From: a virus
Taxonomy: Duplodnaviria > Caudoviricetes
Reading direction: 5' to 3' (one strand)
IMG/VR virus record: IMGVR_UViG_3300030430_003901
Location: 1 to 53,691 of that record
DNA: 53,691 bases
Position 1 is the stretch's first letter. The number at the start of each line of letters is the position of its first letter. A program made the position numbers and the translations under genes. This document shows positions 5,137-24,097 of this stretch, one piece after another. Below the pieces are notes generated by a model. It was not told where the DNA came from. It did no database searches and worked only from the letters and a program-made list of their open reading frames with translations.

Positions 5137-5526
5137 TTAATTATAATGTATTTCTGCGTGGCATCTACAACAAAGAACAACGCATTTGTCAATTTCTTTT
5201 TGTATTTTTTTTACTGAATATCCTTTGTGACCTCCATCTCCTATAGCAAATAATTTATTGTCTTGAGGATGATGAAACTGTAAGGCTGAAGAGGTAAAGT
5301 TTGAATGAGTTTTTTTTGAATATCCACATTTTACGCAACTCAAATTTTCTTTATATGAATGTATCCAAGCTCTTGACTTGGCTCTTTTTTCTCTATTGTA
5401 AACAACCTTACAAGGTTTACACAAAGTATCTCTTATAATACTTCCATCTTTTTTTTTATGTCCACTTGCAAAAAAATTATCTTCCCTTTTAAATTTTTTA
5501 CATCGTCTGCATTTTTTATATTTCAT
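5137..5526 (-). CDS. HNH endonuclease with N-terminal Zn ribbon
   Basis: CRRC, CKPC, CVKCG, LQFHH, KCVVLCCRCHAEIH motifs. Confidence 0.8.
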   Translation of the reverse strand: MKYKKCRRCKKFKREDNFFASGHKKKDGSIIRDTLCKPCKVVYNREKRAKSRAWIHSYKENLSCVKCGYSKKTHSNFTSSALQFHHPQDNKLFAIGDGGHKGYSVKKIQKEIDKCVVLCCRCHAEIHYN

Positions 5527-6180: not shown

Positions 6181-6496
6181 TTAATTTAATTGTTAAGTTT
6201 TCATTATAATAATCTAGGTAGTCATCAACATCTATTTCTGCTAAGTCTAAAAGTATGGGTGGCTCTCCTGCTTCCCTAACATACTCACATTCAAAATAAT
6301 ATGGTCGGTTTAATACAGTAGAAACTCCTGCTATTTTTTGTGTCCAATACTCTTTTGACTTTAGTTGGTCTATAGACCTATCAATTTGAGTAGCCACATT
6401 AATACCAAGTTTGCTAGGTAAGTCTCTGATTTTATCAACAAACCAATCATCAACTTCGTAGTGCTTAACCTCCCCTATATATTTCTGTCTTAGCAT
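6131..6496 (-). CDS. Hypothetical protein
   Basis: Operon-consistent ORF; start uncertain. Confidence 0.55.
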   Translation of the reverse strand: MLRQKYIGEVKHYEVDDWFVDKIRDLPSKLGINVATQIDRSIDQLKSKEYWTQKIAGVSTVLNRPYYFECEYVREAGEPPILLDLAEIDVDDYLDYYNENLTIKLNDNRRKDKLLETNSQQ

Positions 6497-14245: not shown

Positions 14246-14512
14246 TTATAAATGACCTCCTATCTTTAATTCGTCACACTCAAATCTCCACTCTGATTCT
14301 GACTCAGGTTCGTTCATTCCATTGTAATCATCTACTCCATTGCCATACTCAAAGTTAGCTTCACTCATTGCTTTGTCTATCTTATCTACATAGATGTCTT
14401 CATTCTCCCATAGATACTCAAGTACTTGCTCCTCAGTTAAATTGTTGGGTACTTCTACTTCTACCTCAGCGAACTTGTGGTAAACACTTCTTTGTTGAAT
14501 TTTTACTTTCAT
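14246..14512 (-). CDS. Hypothetical acidic early protein
   Basis: ORF preceded by (AT)n leader. Confidence 0.65.
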   Translation of the reverse strand: MKVKIQQRSVYHKFAEVEVEVPNNLTEEQVLEYLWENEDIYVDKIDKAMSEANFEYGNGVDDYNGMNEPESESEWRFECDELKIGGHL

Positions 14513-14523
14513 ATATATATATA

Positions 14524-15039
14524 TTAAATTAAGATTGCTTCATCGTAATCGCTACCTTGTACATTGATTTCACCTTGTATCTCGTAGCCACCTTTTTCAA
14601 GCAGAATTTTTCGTGCAGATTCCGAGTCTTTTGCCATTATCCTGTATTCTAAAGAACAAGGAACGCTAAATGTGAACTCTTGCTTTGGTTTTCTATACTC
14701 TCTGATATACTCTTGCAGGATAGTTGGGCTTGATTGACCACCGATATTCCAAGTTTGTAACTTTGACTTGGTGTAGTTGAGGTCATAAGTTTTCCAATCA
14801 TATATAGTAAACTGACCTGTCCTTCCATCATCGTCTGTGATTTCAATGACCCATTCCATTTGACACTTTCCATCACCACTCTCACCTAAGGTGGCTTCGC
14901 CAAACATTTCTACTAATTCAAGGTAAGTAACATCTACATATCCTTGCAGACATCCACCTACATATTCATCGAATCTATCTTTATACTCTTGGTTTGTTAA
15001 AGGTTCAAGAGTGCAACCTTTCCATTTAATTATATTCAT
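14524..15039 (-). CDS. Hypothetical early protein
   Basis: Protein-like pattern (FGEAT...DGKCQMEW...FTIYDWK...WNIGG); no function recognised. Confidence 0.65.
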   Translation of the reverse strand: MNIIKWKGCTLEPLTNQEYKDRFDEYVGGCLQGYVDVTYLELVEMFGEATLGESGDGKCQMEWVIEITDDDGRTGQFTIYDWKTYDLNYTKSKLQTWNIGGQSSPTILQEYIREYRKPKQEFTFSVPCSLEYRIMAKDSESARKILLEKGGYEIQGEINVQGSDYDEAILI

Positions 15040-15057
15040 ATCTATTAATTATTAAAG

Positions 15058-15294
15058 TTAATCTTCTTGGGGTGGTAAAAAACATGATGCATCCTCATCA
15101 ATTGCATCTTTAATAACTTGATACACATGCTCTGATTTGAACACCCTTTCCAATACACCCAATGCGTCTGCTTGGGTGCAATTGTAATTCTCCTGCACAT
15201 CGTCTTTGTGCCACATGATTTCAACAAACCAACCTCGTCTTTCTAATTCGTCTTTGAGGTCATCTGCGTCCATTTGTTTTATATCTATACTCAT
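15058..15294 (-). CDS. Hypothetical early protein
   Basis: Operon-consistent ORF. Confidence 0.6.
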   Translation of the reverse strand: MSIDIKQMDADDLKDELERRGWFVEIMWHKDDVQENYNCTQADALGVLERVFKSEHVYQVIKDAIDEDASCFLPPQED

Positions 15295-15295
15295 C

Positions 15296-15466
15296 TTAAT
15301 ACAGTTTTAATTCTGTCCACTCTATATCAAAAGTAAGTAATGACTCATGCTCATCCTCATCTCTTTCAGAGTTGTTATCTATTAACCATTTGTCAACATC
15401 ATTTGTGATGTCAACGATGTATGTGTATCCTGTGTTGTCAGTAAATCTGATAATTGCTACTTTCAT
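15296..15466 (-). CDS. Hypothetical early protein (start moved to MKVAIIRF)
   Basis: The track start at 15535 lies inside the tRNA-like element; ATG at 15466 follows an AT-rich leader. Confidence 0.6.
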   Translation of the reverse strand: MKVAIIRFTDNTGYTYIVDITNDVDKWLIDNNSERDEDEHESLLTFDIEWTELKLY

Positions 15467-15486
15467 GTCTATTAAATTAAAATTAG

Positions 15487-15603
15487 AGGGCAAGTCAGGA
15501 TTCGAACCTGCTTCTATAACTAAGGTATGTGTCAAATCAGTAGAGGTTTATGACTTCTCTACCTATACCACTCCCCTCCACCCATGTGGAGATTACTTGC
15601 CCT
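15487..15603 (-). ncRNA. tRNA-like element 1: acceptor-like stem + T-arm with about 85-nt structured insert, no anticodon arm
   Basis: AGGGCAAGT...CAGG-TTCGAAT-CCTG-ACTTGCCCT; internal hairpins CTCCAC/GTGGAG and GTAGAG/CTCTAC; D-loop-like AGTGG. Confidence 0.65.
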
Positions 15604-15607
15604 GTCT

Positions 15608-15652
15608 GATGGTTTGTTTTTGGACTATCGCATAGCCATAAGAGTAACCACC
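15608..15652 (-). other. Hairpin between stop codon and tRNA-like element 1
   Basis: GGTGGTT...GGCTAT-gcg-ATAGTC...AACCATC, directly after the TAA at 15653. Confidence 0.5.
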
Positions 15653-16213
15653 TTACGAAACCTCTTGCTCTTTCTCAACGAAGTCATACTTCTGTCTAAG
15701 ATTGCCTTCATGACAGTCGACAGGAAACCACTTCTCCAACAACCTCTTTCTCTCACCATAGAGCCATTGGGTGCCATTGTTTTTCAACATATCCCTCACA
15801 TCTTGACCAATCCAACTATAACGAAACCCCTTGGTGTGTGCCTTGTTTGTATCTTTTAAGTCATCATAGTCAGGCAACCTCTCATGAAGTAATTCAAACA
15901 TTACCTCCTCGCTGATGTCTTTATACCATCGTTGATTACCTGCCTTATCATATAGTTTACTCTCATGATAGTCTCCAACCATTATGATTTCATCACCTGC
16001 CCATGTGCCTTTGTATCGGATGAATTTACTTGTGCCTTCATGCCACTCACCCCAACCCCCACTACAAGTAGTGATTAGATGTCCAAGTGCCTGTAAGACA
16101 GACCCTCTGTCTCCATTACTTATAATTTCTCCATGCTTACAGCCACTACCAAATGTCATTGGCTCAAGTACCTGCTTCTTGGTTTTGTTTACGATTTTAA
16201 AATATTGTCCCAT
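15653..16213 (-). CDS. Conserved phage hypothetical protein (MGQY..VN..K / WAGD..VGDY type)
   Basis: Motif pattern recalled from uncharacterised phage proteins. Confidence 0.7.
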   Translation of the reverse strand: MGQYFKIVNKTKKQVLEPMTFGSGCKHGEIISNGDRGSVLQALGHLITTCSGGWGEWHEGTSKFIRYKGTWAGDEIIMVGDYHESKLYDKAGNQRWYKDISEEVMFELLHERLPDYDDLKDTNKAHTKGFRYSWIGQDVRDMLKNNGTQWLYGERKRLLEKWFPVDCHEGNLRQKYDFVEKEQEVS

Positions 16214-16214
16214 A

Positions 16215-16445
16215 TTATATTTTTTTATTAATTAATCTCAGTAAAGTTGAAATATCGCCTATGGCAAATTCCATGTCGGTATCAAGCATATCACATTGTT
16301 CAATAAGAAACATATGCACGATATCGCATTGTTTGATGAGGTGTTTCATCTCACTCTTCAAATCTTTTTTTGTATTAGTGGTATTGGATAGGGAAAGAGC
16401 ATCCTCCAATTCTGAATTAGTTATTGATATATTAATTTTACTCAT
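16215..16445 (-). CDS. Hypothetical early protein
   Basis: AAACACT-ATG leader after tRNA-like element 2. Confidence 0.65.
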   Translation of the reverse strand: MSKINISITNSELEDALSLSNTTNTKKDLKSEMKHLIKQCDIVHMFLIEQCDMLDTDMEFAIGDISTLLRLINKKI

Positions 16446-16460
16446 AGTGTTTATATTTGT

Positions 16461-16503
16461 GGAGTTGGGGGACTCGAACCCCCTGTTTTTCCATTAAGAC
16501 TCC
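16461..16503 (-). ncRNA. tRNA-like minihelix 2
   Basis: GGAGTc-TTAATGGAAAAACA-GGGGG-TTCGAGT-CCCCC-aACTCC-ACA. Confidence 0.65.
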
Positions 16504-16530
16504 TTGCTTGGCAACCCACCAAACATTCGA

Positions 16531-16562
16531 CAATAATACGACAAAAAATCGACATATGCAAG
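16531..16562 (-). promoter_or_regulatory. Early-class promoter, copy 3
   Basis: CTTG-CATATGTCGATTTTTTGTCG-TATTATTG. Confidence 0.7.
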
Positions 16563-16596
16563 TTTTTGTCCAACTATTTTTTTAGTAACTTCGTTA

Positions 16597-16821
16597 CTAT
16601 CTGTCGTTTGCAATTTCAAATTCAAAATCAGAATTGTCGTTGCACTCATGACACGGTGTGCTGTATGCCATGTCACAATAATAATCTGAATGCCATATCT
16701 CACCCTCACCACCACACACCTCACACTCATCATTATAAAAGTCTGCGTGTTCCAAACACTCAGAACATATGTCGGTCTCCCACTTTGGTGGGGCATCACA
16801 ACAGTTACTTAATTCACTCAT
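16597..16821 (-). CDS. Small Cys-rich Zn-finger protein
   Basis: SNCCDAP...ICSECLEH, DnaJ-like CEVCGGEG, PCHEC. Confidence 0.65.
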   Translation of the reverse strand: MSELSNCCDAPPKWETDICSECLEHADFYNDECEVCGGEGEIWHSDYYCDMAYSTPCHECNDNSDFEFEIANDR

Positions 16822-16964
16822 AGATATTTATATTTAGATTGTTTTGCTTTCCATTGCTTATGCCAATACGCATACTCAGAGTCCTGAGGTCGCAACACTT
16901 GGATGCGACCCCCCTCCTCCTTCTGAACACATATGACATTTGTATTTAACTTCTTAACTATCAT
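16818..16964 (-). CDS. Small hypothetical protein (start moved to MIVKKLN)
   Basis: The shorter start overlaps the upstream gene's end; ATGA coupling downstream. Confidence 0.5.
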   Translation of the reverse strand: MIVKKLNTNVICVQKEEGGRIQVLRPQDSEYAYWHKQWKAKQSKYKYL

Positions 16965-18276
16965 CGTTCTCAAGTTTTGCAAGATACTCAAATTGTGCAT
17001 CGTTCTGCTTTCCAAACAACTCGATGAAGTGTTGTTCGTTATGCTCCTCCTTCACATACTCGCTATCGAATGCACCCTTGAAAACTAAATCGCCTTGACA
17101 CGCATGAGACAGGTCATATATAATTTTACTATCATTAGGGTATTTGACAATCAAATTGCAATGACCATATCTCTTGGCAGGATATCCATTACTACCATAG
17201 GTTGTTGATGACTTGTCAGAAGTATAGACCTTACAGTTTGGGAACTTCTCTTGTAGTTTTCTTTTACTCTCAAGCAAGAAAACTTCTCGCCTTTGTTCTG
17301 CCTGTACCTTTTGGGTTTCTGTCTTAACCCACGCCCTATGGTCTAACATATATGTAGTGAAGTTGACAGTTCTCCTTGTTTCACTCCATCGATTAGTCAT
17401 TTTATAGTTCACAACCTTCCTGTCATATCCACTCCTTTTAGTAACCAAATTTCCTGTCAAAAGACTGACTGACTTGTCCTCATCGTATCGAGAACCTTTG
17501 ATGCTATAGTACAGTTTGGCTTCTCCCTTCTGCTTATATAATAAACCTCGGTTAGCGTCCCTGAAATTAAAGGTTACCTCCAACAGTTTACCCACAGTAT
17601 AACCATAACCTGATACTCCAAAAGATAAAGTTATCGAGTGTGTGTCTCTATCGTTAGACCAAACATCGTCCTCGAAGGTTATCTCATTGCCAATTACACC
17701 ATTGTACTCATCAGTATACCAATCCTTTCGTCTCTCAACGATTGGTTTCTCTTTATACTGCTGAATAAAACTTTTAATTTTGAGGTATTCGTCATAGTCC
17801 TCCCACGCACTATACATACGCATAGCGAGTTGGTCGCATAGATGATACTTAATCATTGAAATAAGTGCGATGTCAGGGACTAACTCACCTTTGATTCTTT
17901 TGAACTCGTGTAAGGTGTTACGCCATTTACTGACCTCTCCAACCTTATATATATACTCCCCTTCATTGTCAGAGTTTTTATACATCTTTGATATCAAGTC
18001 CTCATGCTTGAGTAAATCCATCCAAAAATCATTATGCTCTTGTTTGACAACAGCCCCTTGATATTCAGTTACAACCTTTGGTTGAGGTAGTGTCTTGTCA
18101 CTACTATAATGCTTGGCACTATCGTAGTCAGGGTTCGCCAAGAAGTCCTGTGTCGTGATTGTCGCACTCTCTATATAGGTGTCAAAGTTCTCGAATATTT
18201 CATTCACAAGAGCAACCTTGTGGATTGGATTCCTGAGTCTGCTTTCAGACATTTTCTGTTTTAGTGTTTTTTCCAT
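16954..18276 (-). CDS. Hypothetical protein, about 440 aa (start moved to MEKTLKQ)
   Basis: The track start at 18339 is the ATG inside the hammerhead CTGATGA core; ATG at 18276 follows an A-rich leader. Confidence 0.75.
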   Translation of the reverse strand: MEKTLKQKMSESRLRNPIHKVALVNEIFENFDTYIESATITTQDFLANPDYDSAKHYSSDKTLPQPKVVTEYQGAVVKQEHNDFWMDLLKHEDLISKMYKNSDNEGEYIYKVGEVSKWRNTLHEFKRIKGELVPDIALISMIKYHLCDQLAMRMYSAWEDYDEYLKIKSFIQQYKEKPIVERRKDWYTDEYNGVIGNEITFEDDVWSNDRDTHSITLSFGVSGYGYTVGKLLEVTFNFRDANRGLLYKQKGEAKLYYSIKGSRYDEDKSVSLLTGNLVTKRSGYDRKVVNYKMTNRWSETRRTVNFTTYMLDHRAWVKTETQKVQAEQRREVFLLESKRKLQEKFPNCKVYTSDKSSTTYGSNGYPAKRYGHCNLIVKYPNDSKIIYDLSHACQGDLVFKGAFDSEYVKEEHNEQHFIELFGKQNDAQFEYLAKLENDDS

Positions 18277-18291
18277 AATATAATTTTTTTT

Positions 18292-18348
18292 ATACCTAAG
18301 AACCCGAAGGTTCTTTCGTGCCATTTCAGGACTACTCATCAGAGGTAT
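18292..18348 (-). ncRNA. Hammerhead ribozyme 1 (type I)
   Basis: ATACCT-CTGATGA-GTAGTCCTGAAATGGCAC-GAAA-GAACC-TTCG-GGTTC-TT/AGGTAT. Stems I and III perfect, stem II imperfect. CUU triplet, predicted cut between 18298 and 18297. Confidence 0.8.
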
Positions 18349-18738
18349 TTAACACATCGCATTGAAGTGTCTTTCGATATCAGTAGCGATTATCTTTATC
18401 TCATTGAAGGAGTGTCGATAATCAGAACTCTCTACCTCATCTCTGACTTCAACTTTCATTCTCCTTGGCAACTCGTTATATATATCTATACCCTTCTCGT
18501 ATTTCTGTAGGGCTTCCCACACATACTTCTCACGACCATGCTTGAGGTAGTGCGTGTTAATCAATCTCGCACCTTCATATATATAATTAAGTGCGTGGTC
18601 TTTCTTGGTCTCATACGAGTTCTGTATGAGGTCTGAAGTAGATTTCCAAATCTTATTCAAGATTTCTTTCTGCTCCTTGTTGACACCTTGTGTCTCGAGA
18701 GCAATCAACTGTGTTTGTATTTCGAGTATTGGGTTCAT
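18349..18738 (-). CDS. Hypothetical early protein
   Basis: First gene after promoter copy 4; its stop directly abuts hammerhead 1. Confidence 0.7.
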   Translation of the reverse strand: MNPILEIQTQLIALETQGVNKEQKEILNKIWKSTSDLIQNSYETKKDHALNYIYEGARLINTHYLKHGREKYVWEALQKYEKGIDIYNELPRRMKVEVRDEVESSDYRHSFNEIKIIATDIERHFNAMC

Positions 18739-18757
18739 AGTGCTTTGAAAATTTCGA

Positions 18758-18789
18758 CAAACATACGAAAAGATTTCGACATATGCAAA
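18758..18789 (-). promoter_or_regulatory. Early-class promoter, copy 4
   Basis: TTTG-CATATGTCGAAATCTTTTCG-TATGTTTG. Confidence 0.8.
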
Positions 18790-18813
18790 TCTTTTTTTTG
18801 TCTGTCAGGTTAG

Positions 18814-18856
18814 GTTCAGGGAAGGGAATCGAACCCTTCTGCGTCCAACCCTGAAC
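18814..18856 (-). ncRNA. tRNA-like minihelix 3
   Basis: GTTCAGGG-TTGGACGCAG-AAGGG-TTCGATT-CCCTT-CCCTGAAC, a 13-bp coaxial stack. Confidence 0.7.
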
Positions 18857-18875
18857 TACAGGCATATATATATAA

Positions 18876-19334
18876 CTAAAAATCACCCTCTGCTACCTGA
18901 AAGCAGGGTATCCCATTCCTTCTCCACATCTTGACAACTTTATTCCTGTCATCAAAGACAGCAATTACTCTGTTCCTGTCAATGATTTGTGGGTCGTTCA
19001 ACCATGACTCCTTCAGTTCATCATCAGGCATCATGAGTTTGTCTAAAGGTCTCATAATCAGTGCCTTCCAAGGAACCTTATGCTCCTTCAACCACTTGAC
19101 AGTAGCGTCTTGTGTTGCTATACTTCTGCCACTAAATATATATATATCGTGGTTGAAATTGTCGAGTTCTCTCGCTGTCTTTATGACTGCGTGATTAGGT
19201 TTGTCCATGTCGATGTTCTTGGGGTCAAAAAATTTGTTCCAATCAATCTTACCTTCAGGAGTGCTTGAGTAATCTCTCCTGTCTTGGATGTCAGCGAGTG
19301 TGCCATCCAAATCAAAAATGTAAATGTCTCTCAT
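18876..19334 (-). CDS. Stand-alone HAD phosphatase, T4 PseT/PNK 3'-phosphatase-like domain
   Basis: IFDLDGTLAD, FSGR, LIMRP, FDDRNKVVKMWRRNGIPCFQVAEGDF; no kinase P-loop. Confidence 0.85.
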   Translation of the reverse strand: MRDIYIFDLDGTLADIQDRRDYSSTPEGKIDWNKFFDPKNIDMDKPNHAVIKTARELDNFNHDIYIFSGRSIATQDATVKWLKEHKVPWKALIMRPLDKLMMPDDELKESWLNDPQIIDRNRVIAVFDDRNKVVKMWRRNGIPCFQVAEGDF

Positions 19335-19343
19335 ATCTGTAAA

Positions 19344-19535
19344 TTAAGTTAAGTTATTTATTATTCTGTTCAACTTCCCACTCTCAACCTGATAAGTCAA
19401 ATCATCAACCATACCAAGTTCTCTATCTCGTTCTAACCGAGCGAGTTCGTCTTGGTAGATTTCCAATAGGTCTTTTTCTGCCATTGCTTTTCTGTTCCAA
19501 GCGTCTGCTTTTATTTGCCACTTTGTTTTTCTCAT
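19344..19535 (-). CDS. Hypothetical early protein
   Basis: (AT)n leader after tRNA-like element 4. Confidence 0.6.
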   Translation of the reverse strand: MRKTKWQIKADAWNRKAMAEKDLLEIYQDELARLERDRELGMVDDLTYQVESGKLNRIINNLT

Positions 19536-19555
19536 ATATATAAATTAAAATTAGT

Positions 19556-19596
19556 TTCAGGGGGTGGAATCGAACCACCCTGCAACCATTCCTGAA
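19556..19596 (-). ncRNA. tRNA-like minihelix 4
   Basis: TTCAGG-AATGGTTGCA-GGGTGG-TTCGATT-CCACCC-CCTGAA, a 12-bp stack. Confidence 0.7.
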
Positions 19597-19597
19597 T

Positions 19598-19644
19598 GAA
19601 GGACAATCACACCCCTCATAAATGAGGGGGGTGTGATTTCCTTC
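19598..19644 (-). other. Strong hairpin between stop codon and minihelix 4
   Basis: GAAGGAAATCACACCCCCCTCAT-TT-ATGAGGGGTGTGATTGTCCTTC; no U-tract. Confidence 0.7.
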
Positions 19645-19649
19645 GCTGA

Positions 19650-20066
19650 TTATACATTTAACCTTCTCTCCTTGATAGCGTCACAGAGTATCTCTCTGTA
19701 CTCTTGGCTACCTCTCCTGATAGCACCCAAAACATCGCCCTCCAAGACCGAGGTCATGAACGAACCTTCACCTTTTTTCATGGTGAACTTCATATCTATT
19801 TCACCATTGTCAGTCAGGTAGTATGCACACCTCGAACCGATATAACTGTCTGACTCATAATTCAAGTTTGATAACCCATCCATATCATTTATATTTTTAC
19901 ACAGGGCTGTAGTTAGAACCACTAACATTTGGTATCCTTCCCAATTAACCAAGTATTCGTAACTCTTGTAATGACCTGTTGGATGCACACCATCTGCTAA
20001 AGGTCTGCTTAGACACTTCGGTACGAAGTACTCGTTGATTTCGATTTTATTTGATTGTTTTTCCAT
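19650..20066 (-). CDS. Hypothetical early protein
   Basis: (AT)n leader directly after hammerhead 2. Confidence 0.7.
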   Translation of the reverse strand: MEKQSNKIEINEYFVPKCLSRPLADGVHPTGHYKSYEYLVNWEGYQMLVVLTTALCKNINDMDGLSNLNYESDSYIGSRCAYYLTDNGEIDMKFTMKKGEGSFMTSVLEGDVLGAIRRGSQEYREILCDAIKERRLNV

Positions 20067-20088
20067 CGTATATATATATTTAAAAATT

Positions 20089-20139
20089 TCTGTTTCGTCC
20101 TTTTGGACTCATCAGGATAGGCACACACCTATCGACAGA
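20089..20139 (-). ncRNA. Hammerhead ribozyme 2 (type III)
   Basis: TCTGTC/GATAGG-TGTGTG-CCTATC-CTGATGA-GTCC-AAAA-GGAC-GAAA-CAGA. All core bases and three stems present. GUC triplet, cut between 20134 and 20133. Confidence 0.93.
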
Positions 20140-20157
20140 GGGGGTCTTGCGACCCCC
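20140..20157 (-). other. GNRA-tetraloop hairpin immediately 5' of hammerhead 2
   Basis: GGGGGTC-GCAA-GACCCCC. Confidence 0.75.
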
Positions 20158-20164
20158 ATCTCGA

Positions 20165-21121
20165 TTACTTCCCCTCGAGAACATAGTCGACTGCTCTCGC
20201 TGACTTTGTCAGAGCCGATACAACTGCTTTCGAGTCCTCCATCTTAACCCTCTTGACCCATCCATTGATGTATGCTTGAGAGTTGGTTTCATCGTCACCA
20301 CAGTCAGTACAGATACCTGAGAGACCTGATAACATCATCGCACCACTCTCAGCAATCAGTTCCTCAAAAGCATATCTGTCAGCACCAAAGAAGGTGAAAT
20401 CAACTATGCCCTCTCTCTTGAGTCTGCTCTCATGACCTGTTGAGTGAATCATCTCATGGAACAGCGTCTTGTAGTAGTTATCTATTTTCTTGAACTGCTT
20501 CTTTTCAGGCATCACTATTTTGTCCTCTGTTGGACTGTAGTACGCTCTGTTTTGGTTGACATCCTTGATGGTCAACTTCTTGTTCGCCTTCTTGTAATCT
20601 CTGATTACCTTTTCAGCACTCTCGATTGGAGTAATCTCAACTTCCTCTGTTGGAACTCTTTTTGGTTTGATGTCGCCCTCTATCTGAGATATATTATATA
20701 CTCTGAAGTAGAACATCGAGAAATTTGTGTATACATCACTCTCCTCACATTTTTCCTTCCTGATACACTCATCAAGTTTTGTGTACCACTTACCTGAACC
20801 TTTAGGTTTGAATACGCAGTAGGAAATTTTCCAATTGTACACCTCAGAGTATTTCGTCATCTCATCTGTTTTTACTCTGTAACCTGCTTTCACGATTGAG
20901 TTCAGAGTAGCCCATTCGTTGACTGTGTACTCTCTCGCCCTCATCACATGGTTGAGGAAAAACTGATTGATACCTCTGTACTCTCTACCTGAGAAGTGGT
21001 TGATGGGGTGATTGTCCCCTGATTTCCATGGTCGGAACCATTGTAGACCTTCCTTCTGAAGACCTTCGAGAAGTGCCTGTTTGACCTTCTCTGTTACATC
21101 GAATTTAGATTTTTTTGTCAT
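20165..21121 (-). CDS. ardC: ArdC-like antirestriction ssDNA-binding protein with zincin-like C-terminal domain
   Basis: WFRPW, N..SGREYRGIN, RAYYSP..D.I.MP, TLFHEMIHSTGH..RL.R, YAFEELIAE. Confidence 0.88.
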   Translation of the reverse strand: MTKKSKFDVTEKVKQALLEGLQKEGLQWFRPWKSGDNHPINHFSGREYRGINQFFLNHVMRAREYTVNEWATLNSIVKAGYRVKTDEMTKYSEVYNWKISYCVFKPKGSGKWYTKLDECIRKEKCEESDVYTNFSMFYFRVYNISQIEGDIKPKRVPTEEVEITPIESAEKVIRDYKKANKKLTIKDVNQNRAYYSPTEDKIVMPEKKQFKKIDNYYKTLFHEMIHSTGHESRLKREGIVDFTFFGADRYAFEELIAESGAMMLSGLSGICTDCGDDETNSQAYINGWVKRVKMEDSKAVVSALTKSARAVDYVLEGK

Positions 21122-21160
21122 TTTTCAAAATTTTGGCTTTCGCCTGTTATATATATATTT

Positions 21161-21209
21161 CCTGTTTCGCCTTCTTTGGCTCATCAGCACAGGGTCACCT
21201 GTGGACAGG
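21161..21209 (-). ncRNA. Hammerhead ribozyme 3 (type III)
   Basis: CCTGTC/CACAGG-TGAC-CCTGTG-CTGATGA-GCC-AAAGAA-GGC-GAAA-CAGG. GUC triplet, cut between 21204 and 21203. Confidence 0.92.
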
Positions 21210-21227
21210 GGGGAACCGAAGTCCCCC
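21210..21227 (-). other. cUUCGg hairpin immediately 5' of hammerhead 3
   Basis: GGGGGAC-TTCG-GTTCCCC. Confidence 0.75.
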
Positions 21228-21232
21228 TCAGA

Positions 21233-21427
21233 CTACGCTACTCTGTCCTCGAATCCATAGAGGTCGCCAAGCGTTTGAAAGATGTTGTCTCTCTCTACCT
21301 CATATTCCTCCTCTGTAATCCAACCTTGAGCAAATAGTTTCTCGAGGTTGTCCTCAAGGAAAAATAAGTGTCTTGCTTCTTGAGTAGTGTTATCTGTTGT
21401 GTTAGTATTTGTAATATTCGTATTCAT
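21233..21427 (-). CDS. First early gene, hypothetical (start moved to MNTNITN)
   Basis: The track start at 21481 lies inside the promoter; ATG at 21427 follows a leader shared with ardC. Confidence 0.6.
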   Translation of the reverse strand: MNTNITNTNTTDNTTQEARHLFFLEDNLEKLFAQGWITEEEYEVERDNIFQTLGDLYGFEDRVA

Positions 21428-21478
21428 ATCTGTTAATTTTTGTGGCTCTCGCCTGTTATATTTATTTAAATTCATGCT

Positions 21479-21509
21479 CAAATATAGTTCAATTTTCGTT
21501 CAATCCAAA
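21479..21509 (-). promoter_or_regulatory. Leading early promoter (Bacteroidetes primary-sigma type)
   Basis: TTTG-GATTGAACGAAAATTGAAC-TATATTTG. Confidence 0.7.
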
Positions 21510-22495: not shown

Positions 22496-24097
22496 ATGAA
22501 TCCAAAAGAACTACACTTCGATAGTGATGGACGAAATAAACTGCTTAGTGGAATTACGAAAATAGCGAAAGCAGTTAAGTCTACTTTAGGTCCACAAGGA
22601 AACACAGTCTTAATAGAATCACAAGAACATACAGGAGGAATTACTGTGACGAAAGATGGAGTAACAGTTGCTAAATCAATAAACCTGTTGGACTCAGTTG
22701 AGAATCTTGCAGTAAGAATAATGAAAGAAGCCGCAGATAAAACCGCAACCTCAGCCGGTGATGGAACTACAACTGCTATAGTATTAACTGAATCTTTAGT
22801 TGCTCATGGTCTACAACACTTTAATGACCAAGTCACAAATAGAACTGAAGTATTAAAATTATTGCAGAGTGAATGTGATAATATAATTAAAAGACTAAAG
22901 AAGGATTCAAAAAAAATAACAGGCAAGAAACTAAAAGATGTTGCGGTCATCTCAGCAAACAATGACGATAAGATTGGTAATTTAATTTACAAGGTTTATA
23001 GTGAGGTTGGTAAAGATGGTATAGTAACGGTTGAGAAATCAAAGAACCATGAAACTTATTATGAAACCACACAGGGAATGAAAATAGATAGAGGATATAG
23101 TTCACCTTTATTTATAAACAATCAAAAACATGATGAGTGTATTTATGAAGACATAAAAGTTTTAGTAGCCGATGCAGAGATATCAAACATACTACAAATT
23201 GAAAATGCACTAAAGCCACTAATAAATAAAAAAGAAAAACTATTAATCATTGCACCATGCACAACTCAGTTTACAAATACTCTTGCTGCGAATGTAATGA
23301 AGAATGGTCTAAAGCTTGTAAGCATAGCACCTCCTGAGTTTGGTTACAGACAACATGAACTTATGCAAGATATTGCTTTGTCAGTTGGTGCAACATATTT
23401 TAGCGAGAAGACAGGTGACGATTTAAGTCTCATCCGCTATGACGACTTGGGTCATTGTGCCAAGGTGATAGTTGGTCGTGATTCTACAGTCGTCATAAAA
23501 GATGAGCATGATAAAAAATCTTCTGAGATAAAAGATAGAGTAGATGAACTTTGGGTTGCATATGAAAACTCAAAAAGAAAAGAAGATAAATCATTTATAC
23601 AAAAAAGAATAGCTTCACTAACCGGAGGTATAGGTGTTATGTTTGTGGGAGGCAACACAGACTTAGAACAGAAAGAACTATACGATAGAGTGGACGATGC
23701 AGTTTGTGCTGTGAAGTCAGCTTTGGAAGAGGGTATACTTCCGGGTGGTGGACTTAGCTTATATCATTTAGGGAATGAATATGAAGTAGCAACTATAGAT
23801 GAAGAAAATTTAGAAAAAAAAATTGCTTACGCAATTTTAGCAAAAGCTCTACAATCTCCCTTAGAACAAATACTTTCCAACGCAGGATATGATAATGTTT
23901 ATCTTGGAAAGAAAACAGAAAAGAACGAAGGGTTCGATGTTAAGAATGAGAGATGGGGAAATATGTATGACATGGGAATCATTGACCCTATGAAAGTAAC
24001 AAGGTCAGCTTTGCAAAACGCAATAAGCGTTGCTGTAACTTTACTTTCAACCAACGCAATAGTAACTATTAAAAGAAAACAAGATGCCAATATTTAA
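22496..24097 (+). CDS. groEL: Phage-encoded chaperonin GroEL
   Basis: AVKSTLGPQG, VTKDGVTVAK, AGDGTTTA, RVDDAVCA, EEGILPGGG, GIIDPMKV; lacks the GGM tail. Confidence 0.97.
   Translation: MNPKELHFDSDGRNKLLSGITKIAKAVKSTLGPQGNTVLIESQEHTGGITVTKDGVTVAKSINLLDSVENLAVRIMKEAADKTATSAGDGTTTAIVLTESLVAHGLQHFNDQVTNRTEVLKLLQSECDNIIKRLKKDSKKITGKKLKDVAVISANNDDKIGNLIYKVYSEVGKDGIVTVEKSKNHETYYETTQGMKIDRGYSSPLFINNQKHDECIYEDIKVLVADAEISNILQIENALKPLINKKEKLLIIAPCTTQFTNTLAANVMKNGLKLVSIAPPEFGYRQHELMQDIALSVGATYFSEKTGDDLSLIRYDDLGHCAKVIVGRDSTVVIKDEHDKKSSEIKDRVDELWVAYENSKRKEDKSFIQKRIASLTGGIGVMFVGGNTDLEQKELYDRVDDAVCAVKSALEEGILPGGGLSLYHLGNEYEVATIDEENLEKKIAYAILAKALQSPLEQILSNAGYDNVYLGKKTEKNEGFDVKNERWGNMYDMGIIDPMKVTRSALQNAISVAVTLLSTNAIVTIKRKQDANI

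What the first reader, a model, noticed from the sequence alone, without database searches (positions are those of the whole stretch)
16461..19596. Family of about 42-nt anticodon-less tRNA minihelices
Seen: three elements have a canonical 7-nt T-loop (TTCGATT/TTCGAGT) on a 5-6 bp G/C stem, stacked on an acceptor-like stem (10-13 bp in total). The D and anticodon arms are replaced by a 10-14 nt linker that keeps TGG (TTGGACGCAG, ATGGTTGCAG, TTAATGGAAAAACA). T-stems covary (AAGGG/CCCTT, GGTGG/CCACC, GGGGG/CCCCC). No CCA is encoded. Established: D-loop GG docks on the T-loop to form the tRNA elbow read by RNase P. Inference: these are elbow mimics acting as processing sites, or released small RNAs acting as decoys for tRNA-targeting defence or stress sensors.
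Basis: partly seen in the sequence, partly recalled or inferred. Interest (0 to 1): 0.85.

Follow-up and report, generated by a model that had tools for sequence, protein, structure and literature searches.

The report
Phage tRNA-like minihelix RNA family
Three short RNA elements between the early genes of a marine phage mimic only the top half of a tRNA; they belong to a widespread, phage-enriched RNA family found in no database or paper I could search, and most likely mark sites where host tRNA-processing enzymes cut phage messenger RNAs.

Summary
E1 (16460-16503), E2 (18813-18856) and E3 (19555-19596) lie on the - strand between co-oriented genes. Each has an acceptor-like stem stacked on a T-arm (11-13 layers) and a short TGG-containing linker in place of the D and anticodon arms. 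ARAGORN and Rfam call nothing there. A model built only from copies in a distant phage finds E3 and E2. Across 44 distinct sequences from viral contigs, 99% of pair cells are paired (57.5% in shuffles), and all six acceptor pairs covary. The stack length is 12 bp, as in tRNA. CCA is never encoded. The motif closes in 36% of viral pattern hits but only at background level in cellular genomes. I found no description of it in Rfam 15 or in the papers searched. Function is inferred. In the window's lineage, the slot after an ArdC-like gene holds a hammerhead ribozyme in three phages and a minihelix in two; the slot before it holds a hammerhead or a pistol. Some members sit inside phage tRNA arrays. 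My best reading (about 0.5) is that these are RNase P/RNase Z-dependent mRNA punctuation sites, analogous to plant-mitochondrial t-elements. No cleavage data exist, and the ribozyme link is limited to this one lineage.

The parts
19555..19596 (-). Minihelix E3. It has a 6-bp acceptor (TTCAGG/CCTGAA), an 11-nt linker with TGG, a 5-6 bp T-stem (GGTGG/CCACC), T-loop TTCGATT and discriminator A. It lies 19 nt upstream of the start codon at 19535.
   Evidence: Model R1, built only from L009 copies, scores it 27.0 bits, E 7e-5. R3 scores it 50.3 bits. Its ortholog in L121 carries a compensated acceptor, TTCGAG/CTCGAA.
18813..18856 (-). Minihelix E2. It has an 8-bp acceptor (GTTCAGGG/CCCTGAAC), a 10-nt linker with TGG, T-stem AAGGG/CCCTT, T-loop TTCGATT and discriminator C. 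It starts 19 nt after the stop codon of the PNKP-phosphatase gene and lies upstream of a promoter-like motif.
   Evidence: R1 scores it 24.2 bits, E 6e-4. R3 scores it 42.5 bits.
16460..16503 (-). Minihelix E1, a divergent member. It has a 5-bp acceptor (GGAGT/ACTCC) with one unpaired A, a 15-nt A-rich linker with TGG, T-stem GGGGG/CCCCC and T-loop TTCGAGT. It lies downstream of a promoter-like motif and 14 nt upstream of the start codon at 16445.
   Evidence: R3 aligns it full-length at 18.9 bits, E 0.007. R2 matched only its T-arm. Its positional counterpart in L121 is a longer tRNA-like with a D-like hairpin.
15488..15602 (-). Larger tRNA-like element, not part of the original finding. It has a 7-bp acceptor (GGGCAAG/CTTGCCC), a D-arm with a GG loop, a long central arm with an 11-nt loop, and a 4-bp T-arm with loop TTCGAAT. 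It is intergenic and lies 21 nt upstream of a start codon.
   Evidence: Rfam tRNA-Sec match at 24.3 bits, E 0.2, below cut-off. Cloverleaf-like fold of -40.7 kcal/mol, z -2.5. ARAGORN does not call it. Its counterpart in L121 has compensated stems.
19605..19638 (-). GC-rich hairpin between the stop codon of ORF 19650-20066 and E3. It parallels the hairpins that precede the two hammerheads.
   Evidence: Read. The stem core 19612-19629 is listed.
20087..20141 (-). Type III hammerhead 1, in the slot just downstream of the ArdC-like gene. A GNRA-tetraloop hairpin (about 20140-20157) precedes it.
   Evidence: Rfam RF00008, 46.2 bits against a gathering score of 48.5, E 5e-7. The core and covarying stems are conserved in 6 instances.
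21159..21211 (-). Type III hammerhead 2, in the slot just upstream of the ArdC-like gene. A hairpin with loop CTTCGG (about 21209-21227) precedes it.
   Evidence: Rfam RF00008, 37.4 bits, E 1.6e-4. Sequence read. Alignment.
18776..18788 (-). Promoter-like motif TTGCATATGTCGA, followed by TATGTTTG. It lies downstream of E2 and upstream of ORF 18349-18738.
   Evidence: 4 matches with at most 1 mismatch on the - strand (4696, 14217, 16549, 18776). Reading it as a Bacteroidota -33/-7 promoter is recalled knowledge, not tested.
16549..16561 (-). A second copy of the same promoter-like motif, upstream of E1.
18876..19334 (-). Context gene: a stand-alone PNKP-type HAD phosphatase domain (152 aa). E3 lies upstream of it, with a 63-aa ORF between them, and E2 lies downstream.
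   Evidence: Pfam PF25109, 9.7e-31. PHROG polynucleotide kinase families, 6.5e-37.
20165..21121 (-). Context gene: ArdC-N plus zincin-like metallopeptidase (318 aa). It is the anchor for the synteny comparison.

Best explanation
E1-E3 are transcribed as parts of phage early mRNAs and fold into a mimic of the tRNA 'top half'. That is a 12-bp coaxial acceptor/T helix whose T-loop is capped by the GG of a short linker, giving a tRNA elbow without an anticodon arm.

They belong to a large, phage-enriched RNA family. This part is shown by covariation and by comparison with cellular genomes.

The rest is inferred. The host's tRNA end-processing enzymes would recognise this shape and cut the polycistronic mRNA at its edges. 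RNase P would cut at the 5' edge, RNase Z or exonucleases plus the CCA-adding enzyme would act at the 3' edge, or both. This would separate neighbouring cistrons and give them defined, structured ends. It is the same job that the hammerhead and pistol ribozymes do autonomously in neighbouring and syntenic slots.

A roughly 45-nt mini-tRNA would be released as a by-product or as a second product.
For: Structure and family (shown):
- A model built from two L009 copies alone finds E3 and E2 in 452,847 bases.
- Alignment A6 holds 64 matches, 44 of them distinct.
- On A6, 99.0% of cells are paired against 57.5% in shuffles (0 of 500 reach it) and 43-57% in slid controls. 10 of 12 pairs change on both sides, and all 6 acceptor pairs covary.
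- About 24 of the 510 cells are G-U pairs, which form only on this strand's RNA.
- Acceptor closure is unconstrained by the fetch pattern, yet 30 of 81 unique non-tRNA viral hits close with at least 5 bp. Partner-swapped controls give 5.6%.
- Stack length is 12 bp in 28 and 13 bp in 18 of 59 members.
- In a fixed register the 12th layer is paired in 47 of 55 members. The 13th is paired in 22 of 55, which is about chance.
- CCA is encoded in 0 of 59.
- Only 6 of 107 non-tRNA pattern hits in cellular genomes close with at least 6 bp.

Placement:
- 61 of 79 neighbouring genes are co-oriented with the element, p 1e-6.
- The median distance from the upstream stop codon is 16 nt, and to the next start codon 46 nt.
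- Copies cluster, for example 4 within 2 kb in G003.

Function (inferred):
- The slot downstream of the ArdC-like gene holds a hammerhead in the window, L006 and L007. It holds a minihelix in L121 and L009.
- The slot upstream holds a hammerhead in the window, L005 and L121, and a pistol in L009.
- E3 follows a GC-rich hairpin, as both hammerheads do.
- Members lie inside phage tRNA arrays on the tRNA strand in L063, L098, L102, L112, L143 and L076.
- No common protein partner flanks the elements among 53 flanking ORFs, which fits reliance on universal host enzymes.
- Acceptor/T minihelices are known minimal substrates of RNase P, RNase Z and the CCA-adding enzyme (recalled knowledge).
- Plant mitochondrial t-elements work in exactly this way (PMC1920247, passages read).
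Against: - There is no direct evidence of cleavage or of a released small RNA.
- The ribozyme link is confined to the window's lineage. 19 other minihelix loci (144,434 bases, Rfam gathering scores) and 7 multi-copy loci (69,026 bases, E up to 0.01) hold no ribozyme.
- The slot comparison rests on only six independent genomes.
- In L009 the upstream gene's stop codon lies inside, or abuts, the acceptor 5' strand. An RNase P cut there would make non-stop mRNAs.
- Copies within one phage share acceptor sequences while their T-stems differ: E2/E3, the L074 pair, and L090. Shape-only recognition by host enzymes does not explain this.
- Position +1 is A or U more often than G. Position -1 is A in 38 of 55, and position 74 is C in 34 of 55, with a recurrent CUA trailer. 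These are not the textbook RNase P or RNase Z preferences (recalled), and I cannot explain them.
- E1 lies after a promoter-like motif and E2 before one, so their position relative to transcription units is not uniform.
- The minimum-energy folds of single sequences do not uniquely give the minihelix.
- A6 was fitted to the model's structure, and most loci were fetched with a pattern that fixes part of the linker and T-arm.
Confidence: 0.5

Rival explanations
1. The functional product is the released minihelix itself. It would be a stable, CCA-tailed mini-tRNA of about 45 nt that acts in trans as a decoy or sponge for host factors that read the tRNA elbow or acceptor end. Candidates are defence nucleases or toxins that act on acceptor ends, RNase P, or the CCA-adding enzyme. 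Processing would only be the way to make it.
For: - The conserved GG linker and exact 12-bp stack preserve the full elbow, not merely a hairpin.
- There are several copies per genome, in early or accessory gene regions.
- Conserved -1, 74 and CUA features hint at more than a cleavage signal.
- A PNKP-type phosphatase gene sits between E3 and E2.
Against: - There is no anticodon loop, so the element cannot mimic the target of anticodon nucleases (recalled knowledge).
- No defence-related or RNA-repair partner recurs among 53 flanking ORFs.
- The 461-aa and 129-aa neighbours match no family.
- The swap with self-cleaving ribozymes points to cleavage as the shared function, because a ribozyme releases no tRNA mimic.
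Confidence: 0.17
2. The minihelices are not cut. They would act as structural caps in cis, as stable tRNA-like 3' or 5' structures that block exonucleases or insulate neighbouring cistrons, or that act as unconventional terminators.
For: - They sit directly after stop codons; 27 of 49 lie within 30 nt.
- E2 and the L009 b and c copies are followed by promoter-like motifs.
- The hairpins next to the hammerheads show that this phage does use protective stem-loops.
Against: - A plain hairpin would serve that purpose. The invariant T-loop, the GG linker and the 12-bp length are not needed for it.
- No terminator-like site coincides with E2 or E3 on the coding strand.
- E3 and E1 lie 14-19 nt upstream of start codons with no room for a promoter after them.
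Confidence: 0.13
3. The elements act at DNA level. They would be repeats at gene-cassette boundaries that promote recombination and module shuffling, or remnants of mobile elements or att sites, and the RNA fold would be incidental.
For: - E3 and its L121 ortholog share the element and its 3' flank, but have different genes on both sides.
- E2 and E3 share acceptor stems and flank a two-gene cassette.
- Within a genome the acceptors are alike.
- An HNH endonuclease gene lies elsewhere in the module.
Against: - Pervasive compensatory changes, including strand-specific G-U pairs, show selection on an RNA helix.
- Orientation is tied to the coding strand.
- No integrase or homing endonuclease recurs next to the elements.
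- There is no exact host tRNA match in the 401 genomes sampled.
Confidence: 0.1
4. The elements are decaying tRNA pseudogenes that lost the anticodon arm by deletion and have no present function.
For: Some members lie in tRNA arrays. The window lineage shows a graded series from long tRNA-likes to minihelices.
Against: - 44 distinct sequences keep 99% pairing and a 12-bp stack, with a conserved linker, across very different phages.
- Closure in cellular genomes, where tRNA pseudogenes also arise, is at background level.
Confidence: 0.03

Closest known systems
Plant mitochondrial t-elements (Forner et al. 2007, PMC1920247; passages read)
   Same: They are non-canonical tRNA-like folds that keep the GGTTCRANYCC T-arm and lie in mRNA leaders or trailers. 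RNase P and RNase Z cut them to make mRNA 5' and 3' ends, and the released element receives non-encoded C and A residues. Some cuts fall inside reading frames, which recalls the L009 copies that overlap stop codons.
   Different: t-elements are organellar, few in number, about 74 nt in the example given, and derived from cloverleaf-like tRNA remnants. The phage elements are about 42 nt, have a defined conserved linker, are a large covarying family, and have not been shown to be cut.
Model acceptor/T-arm minihelix substrates of RNase P, RNase Z, the CCA-adding enzyme and some aminoacyl-tRNA synthetases (recalled from the literature; listings only)
   Same: Both have a 12-bp coaxial acceptor plus T helix with a T-loop.
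   Different: Those are laboratory constructs, usually with no D-loop substitute. These elements are natural, embedded in mRNAs, and keep a GG linker that could complete the elbow.
tRNA-like domain of tmRNA
   Same: It has an acceptor stem, a reduced D-loop analogue with GG, a T-arm and no anticodon arm. Rfam's tmRNA model weakly matches the T-arms of E1 and E2 (14.1 and 12.3 bits).
   Different: The phage elements have no pseudoknots or tag reading frame between the halves, ARAGORN finds no tmRNA, and there are several copies per genome inside mRNAs.
mascRNA / MEN-beta tRNA-like small RNAs of vertebrate long non-coding RNAs (recalled)
   Same: A tRNA-like fold at the end of a long transcript is cut by RNase P and RNase Z, which forms the upstream RNA's 3' end and releases a CCA-tailed small RNA.
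   Different: Those are eukaryotic full cloverleaf mimics with an anticodon-like arm. Nothing in the Rfam scans matched the elements.
Self-cleaving ribozymes in phage intergenic regions (hammerhead, pistol)
   Same: They have the same genomic placement and occupy the same syntenic slots next to the ArdC-like gene.
   Different: Ribozymes cut themselves, and Rfam recognises them by a catalytic core. The minihelix has no such core and would need host enzymes.

Membership tests
Canonical tRNA | Cloverleaf with an anticodon arm, recognised by tRNA finders | tested here: not met
   ARAGORN finds 0 genes in the window. Rfam's tRNA model gives no match at E up to 10 over 14500-20500 or at E up to 0.05 over the whole window. 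Only 10-15 nt lie between the acceptor and T stems.
Canonical tRNA | T-arm with a GTTCRANNC loop, and a 7+5 = 12 bp acceptor/T coaxial stack | tested here: met
   T-loops read. Stack length is 12 in 28 and 13 in 18 of 59 members. The 12th layer is paired in 47 of 55 and the 13th in 22 of 55, about chance.
Canonical tRNA | D-loop GG available to dock on the T-loop | tested here: inconclusive
   TGG is present in E1-E3 and in 7 of 8 genuine elements from the scan that did not require it. It is present in 18 of 36 structural hits not forced by the fetch pattern. Docking itself cannot be tested with these tools.
Canonical tRNA | 3' CCA, either encoded or added | tested here: not met
   CCA is encoded in 0 of 59 members. 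Post-transcriptional addition cannot be tested here.
t-element-type processing signal (functional class) | Non-canonical tRNA-like fold that keeps the GGTTCRANYCC T-arm, lying within an mRNA leader, trailer or intercistronic spacer on the coding strand | tested here: met
   The definition is taken from PMC1920247.
t-element-type processing signal (functional class) | Element edges coincide with mapped mRNA termini, and RNase P or RNase Z cleaves there | not testable with these tools
   This needs transcript-end mapping or enzyme assays.
tmRNA | Tag reading frame and pseudoknots between the two halves of the tRNA-like domain | tested here: not met
   ARAGORN finds no tmRNA. Rfam's tmRNA model matches only 17 nt of the T-arm, at 14.1 and 12.3 bits against a gathering score of 47.
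Any Rfam 15 family | Score at or above the family's gathering threshold | tested here: not met
   There are 0 matches in the window. None overlaps a minihelix in 19 further loci or at permissive thresholds.
Intrinsic terminator | GC-rich hairpin followed directly by a U-tract on the coding strand | tested here: not met
   One search finds no site at E2 or E3 on the - strand. At E1 a site scores only on the + strand.
att-site or tRNA 3'-fragment scar | Identity to the 3' part of a host tRNA gene, with no complementary 5' strand and no compensatory change | tested here: not met
   A complementary 5' strand is present and covaries. E3's 3' half has 0 exact matches and one 2-mismatch match in 401 sampled genomes. 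The host is unknown, so the sample is indicative only.
Hammerhead type III (the neighbouring elements) | CUGAUGA and GAAA cores, a GUC cleavage triplet and three stems | tested here: met
   The scores of 46.2 and 37.4 bits are below Rfam's gathering score of 48.5, so membership by Rfam's own criterion is not met for the two window copies. The L121 copy scores 48.5. Self-cleavage was not tested.

The most novel reading that the evidence does not exclude
Phages carry a dedicated class of anticodon-less mini-tRNAs. Each copy is cut out of an early mRNA by host RNase P and RNase Z and receives a CCA tail. The same cuts punctuate the phage's mRNAs, interchangeably with hammerhead and pistol ribozymes. 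The released molecule, of about 45 nt, then acts in trans on host machinery that reads the tRNA elbow or acceptor end. The acceptor sequences shared within a phage and the conserved -1, 74 and CUA positions would be the identity elements of that second function.
Probability: 0.15. Interest if true: 0.92.

Novelty: new variant of a known kind. Interest (0 to 1): 0.8.

Why it matters
If the family works as inferred, phages from very different hosts use the universal tRNA-processing enzymes as a ready-made way to cut their polycistronic mRNAs. A 42-nt mimic of the tRNA top half would be the signal.

That would do three things:
- It would add a large new class of structured RNA to phage biology. 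Nothing in Rfam 15 or in the papers I could search describes it.
- It would give a bacterial-virus counterpart to mitochondrial tRNA punctuation and t-elements.
- It would bear on an old open question, namely what the many hammerhead, pistol and related ribozymes in phage genomes are for. In this lineage the ribozymes and the minihelices occupy the same slots, so one experiment can test both.

The element is also short, modular and host-independent in principle. That makes it a candidate tool for operon engineering.

Tried and rejected
- **Close DNA relatives in named phage records.** None were found for 14500-21500 or for the fourth element.
- **The 461-aa protein as an anchor for relatives.** No relative was found.
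- **Exact E2/E3 skeleton pattern in viral contigs.** There were 0 matches, though the window's own record may be left out.
- **MAFFT alignments of the elements (A1, A2).** They mis-registered the acceptor strands. I replaced them with model-based alignments.
- **Model R2.** It was too narrow to align E1, L016a or L017a full-length.
- **The weak R1/R2 hit at 21202-21243 (-).** It is the hairpin plus stems of hammerhead 2, not a minihelix.
- **General ribozyme co-occurrence.** I looked for it and did not find it outside the window's lineage. L018 has only a sub-threshold type I hammerhead-like hit.
- **My own hammerhead regex.** It found 0 and then 2 of the 6 known copies, so I dropped it as unreliable.
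- **Flanking-gene association.** Among the 53 flanking ORFs scanned, the only family hit by more than one (two ORFs) is ArdC-like.
- **RNA-repair context.** The 461-aa and 129-aa neighbours match nothing in Pfam, PHROGs, NCBIfam or PDB sequences, and there was no usable Atlas hit.
- **Public RNA data.** No RNA holder was listed, so I did not use read laying.
- **Literature.** Five searches and term look-ups in PMC5737381 and PMC10690425 found no description of an anticodon-less phage minihelix.
- **The single 2-mismatch genome hit to E3's 3' half (L266).** It is the end of a longer, different tRNA-like with another acceptor.

Full report
**1. What is there**

The window is a complete IMG/VR virus record of 53,691 bases, estimated 89% complete. 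Bases 4.2-21.5 kb carry a run of - strand genes: a helicase, a primase-like protein, an exonuclease, an HNH endonuclease, an ArdC-like protein, a PNKP-type phosphatase and many small ORFs with no family.

The three reported elements lie on this strand, between those genes:
- E1, 16460-16503
- E2, 18813-18856
- E3, 19555-19596

Each has a 7-nt T-loop on a 5-6 bp stem. That stem stacks directly on an acceptor-like stem. Read by hand, E2 has 13 pairs, E3 has 12, and E1 has 10 plus a mismatch layer. A linker of 10-15 nt containing TGG stands where the D and anticodon arms would be. No CCA follows.

ARAGORN finds no tRNA in the window. Rfam finds nothing at its gathering scores.

The T-loop word GGTTCGANTCC occurs exactly four times, always on the - strand.

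Folding single sequences gives only modest support. The z-scores are -1.3 to -2.1, and E2 and E3 have alternative minimum-energy folds. The case therefore rests on comparative evidence.

**2. It is a family**

A structural scanner asked for a T-loop, a perfect 5-bp T-stem, an acceptor of at least 5 bp and a linker of 4-22 nt. It gave 16 hits in 506,872 bases of window plus related loci, against 0-3 in each of 20 shuffles.
- Four of the hits were inside real tRNAs, and one was dubious.
- The rest included three copies in L009, which is the same phage as L010. L009 is a distant relative, at 39% identity in the ArdC-like protein. Its stems are entirely different, but it has the same architecture and a TGG linker.

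A covariance model seeded only with two L009 copies found E3 (27.0 bits, E 7e-5) and E2 (24.2 bits, E 6e-4) in 452,847 bases.

I then scanned viral contigs with a pattern that fixes only part of the linker and the T-loop.
- Of the 116 pattern hits, 11 lay in ARAGORN tRNAs.
- Among 81 unique non-tRNA hits with full flanks, 30 closed into an acceptor stem of at least 5 bp, and 29 into one of at least 6 bp.
- Partner-swapped controls closed in 5.6% and 2.6% of cases.
- Several 'non-closers' do close once the T-stem is read as 7 bp.

**3. Covariation and anatomy**

Model R2 found 64 matches at E up to 1e-3 in 955,170 bases, and 44 of them are distinct. On that alignment:
- 99.0% of pair cells are standard pairs, against 57.5% in shuffles (0 of 500 reach it) and 43-57% when the partners are slid.
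- 10 of 12 pairs change on both sides.
- All six acceptor pairs covary, with 3-6 pair types each.
- G-U pairs are tolerated, which fits an RNA read from this strand.

Two caveats apply. The alignment was fitted to the model. The fetch pattern forces part of the linker and T-arm, although it does not constrain the acceptor.

A scan that did not require TGG gave 79 unique non-tRNA structural hits:
- Of the 36 not forced by the fetch pattern, 18 contain TGG.
- Among the 59 TGG-containing members, the stack is 12 bp in 28 and 13 bp in 18.
- None encodes CCA.

In a fixed 12-bp register:
- The 12th layer is paired in 47 of 55 members.
- The 13th is paired in 22 of 55, which is close to chance. The selected length is therefore 12 bp, as in tRNA.
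- Position -1 is A in 38 of 55. Position 74 is C in 34 of 55. The commonest trailer is CUA, in 14 of 55, including E2, E3 and the L121 copy.
- These counts include related variants and are not independent.

The broad model R3, run with filters off, scores E3 at 50.3 bits, E2 at 42.5 bits and E1 at 18.9 bits (E 0.007, full length). It finds no other copy in the window.

**4. Virus-enriched**

There, 13 hits lay in tRNAs or tmRNAs. Only 6 of the other 107 closed with at least 6 bp, which is background level, and only two of those (both in Streptomyces contigs) looked convincing.

**5. Placement**

- Elements lie on the coding strand. 61 of 79 neighbouring genes are co-oriented with them, p 1e-6, by naive gene calls.
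- They usually lie just after a stop codon. The median distance is 16 nt, 27 of 49 are within 30 nt, and several overlap the stop.
- They lie shortly before the next start codon, at a median of 46 nt.
- Copies cluster: four within 2 kb in G003, three within 1.3 kb in G002, and two within 0.6 kb in G005.
- Within a phage the copies tend to share acceptor sequences while their T-stems differ by compensated changes, as in E2/E3, the L074 pair and L090.
- Of 62 loci with members, 11 hold tRNAs in the fetched stretch. In six loci a member lies inside or beside a tRNA array, on the tRNA strand.
- The 53 flanking ORFs share no family.

**6. The ribozyme clue**

A permissive Rfam scan found two type III hammerheads in the window. 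Both fall just below Rfam's cut-off, both have intact cores, and each follows a GC-rich tetraloop hairpin:
- 20087-20141, at 46.2 bits
- 21159-21211, at 37.4 bits

The same hairpin-plus-hammerhead module recurs in L005, L006, L007 and L121, with compensatory changes in stems I and II. L009 has a pistol ribozyme at 67.5 bits.

Synteny mapped by tblastn gives this picture around the ArdC-like gene:

| Slot | Hammerhead | Pistol | Minihelix |
|---|---|---|---|
| Just upstream | window, L005, L121 | L009 | none |
| Just downstream | window, L006, L007 | none | L121, L009 |

- The L121 minihelix is an E3 ortholog with a compensated acceptor.
- E3 itself follows a GC-rich hairpin, as the hammerheads do.
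- L121 also has longer tRNA-like counterparts of E1 and of the fourth element, again with compensated stems.

Against generality:
- 19 other minihelix loci hold no ribozyme at Rfam's gathering scores.
- 7 multi-copy loci hold none at E up to 0.01.
- L008 and L011-L017 show neither element next to their ArdC gene.

**7. Interpretation**

The part that is shown: this is a phage-enriched family of RNA elements of about 42 nt that reproduce the acceptor/T half and, probably, the elbow of tRNA.

The part that is inferred: host RNase P and/or RNase Z and the CCA-adding enzyme treat them as tRNA ends and so cut phage mRNAs between cistrons. This inference rests on:
- the exact 12-bp stack and conserved T-loop and GG, which are the features those enzymes read (recalled knowledge);
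- the presence of members inside tRNA arrays;
- the lack of any phage protein partner;
- the exchange with self-cleaving ribozymes in syntenic slots.

The closest documented precedent is the plant-mitochondrial t-element (PMC1920247, passages read).

Open problems:
- It is unknown which edge is cut. Stop codons inside the L009 acceptor strands argue against a simple RNase P cut there.
- It is unexplained why acceptors are alike within a genome.
- It is unexplained what the conserved -1, 74 and CUA positions mean.

The decoy idea is not excluded, but it has no specific support. Readings as a terminator, an att scar or a pseudogene are disfavoured.

**8. Novelty**

Rfam 15 has no matching family. 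Five full-text searches and two targeted look-ups found no description. The supplementary motif lists of two large surveys could not be opened.

I rate it a new variant of a known kind: tRNA-like processing signals, now as a compact, widespread phage family. Confidence is high for the structure and the family, and about 0.5 for the mechanism.

Noticed in passing
window 20087-20141 (-) and 21159-21211 (-): Two type III hammerhead ribozymes flank the ArdC-like gene. Each follows a GC-rich tetraloop hairpin. Their scores are just under Rfam's cut-off, so a standard annotation would miss them. The hairpin-plus-hammerhead module is conserved in L005, L006, L007 and L121, with covariation.
   Followed up: yes
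window 15488-15602 (-); L121 about 6356-6489 (+): An oversized tRNA-like element of about 115 nt has an acceptor, a D-arm, a long central arm with an 11-nt loop, and a 4-bp T-arm. It lies intergenic, 21 nt before a start codon. ARAGORN does not call it. L121 has a counterpart with compensated acceptor and T stems.
   Followed up: partly
L121 5433-5508 (+): A tRNA-like element with an acceptor, a D-like hairpin, an A-rich linker and a T-arm, but no anticodon arm. It sits after the same promoter-like motif and before a start codon, which is E1's position. This suggests a graded series running from tRNA-like to minihelix.
   Followed up: partly
L009 9791-9857 (+): A pistol ribozyme (67.5 bits against a gathering score of 34.5) lies directly upstream of the ArdC-like gene. 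That is the slot where the window has a hammerhead.
   Followed up: yes
window 4696, 14217, 16549, 18776 (-): A recurrent motif, TTGCATATGTCGA (at most 1 mismatch), is followed about 20 nt later by a TAnnTTTG-like box. It is probably the phage's early promoter and is of the Bacteroidota type, which hints at the host phylum. L121 has the same motif at 5384.
   Followed up: partly
window 18876-19334 (-): A stand-alone PNKP-type HAD phosphatase domain with no kinase domain lies between E3 and E2. It could act on the 2',3'-cyclic phosphate ends left by the hammerheads, but this was not tested. Relatives of this gene in L019-L021 lie about 300 nt downstream of a real tRNA-Gln.
   Followed up: no
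family-wide: In a fixed 12-bp register, position -1 is A in 38 of 55 members, position 74 is C in 34 of 55, and the trailer at 74-76 is CUA in 14 of 55. That is a near-CCA that is never CCA. I cannot explain it.
   Followed up: partly
L039 and about 27 further loci (for example L040, L058): One near-identical minihelix variant (acceptor TGGGATT/GATCTCA, with a G-U at the third pair) recurs in many large contigs of 80-250 kb, mostly from one metagenome. It lies roughly 8-9 kb from a four-gene tRNA cluster.
   Followed up: no
window 22496-24097 (+): The phage encodes a GroEL-like chaperonin of 533 aa (PHROG 5725, E 8e-132).
   Followed up: no
L018 11418-11473 (+): A sub-threshold type I hammerhead-like hit (30.9 bits against a gathering score of 34) lies about 460 nt downstream of the ArdC-like gene of a distant relative.
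   Followed up: no
L266 1385-1526 (+), from genome handle G131: A tRNA-like element of about 140 nt (acceptor GCAGGG/CCCTGC, T-arm GGTGG/CCACC) that ARAGORN does not call, in a cellular genome from the phylum of the Hymenobacter MAG. It could be an intron-bearing or otherwise unusual tRNA.
   Followed up: no
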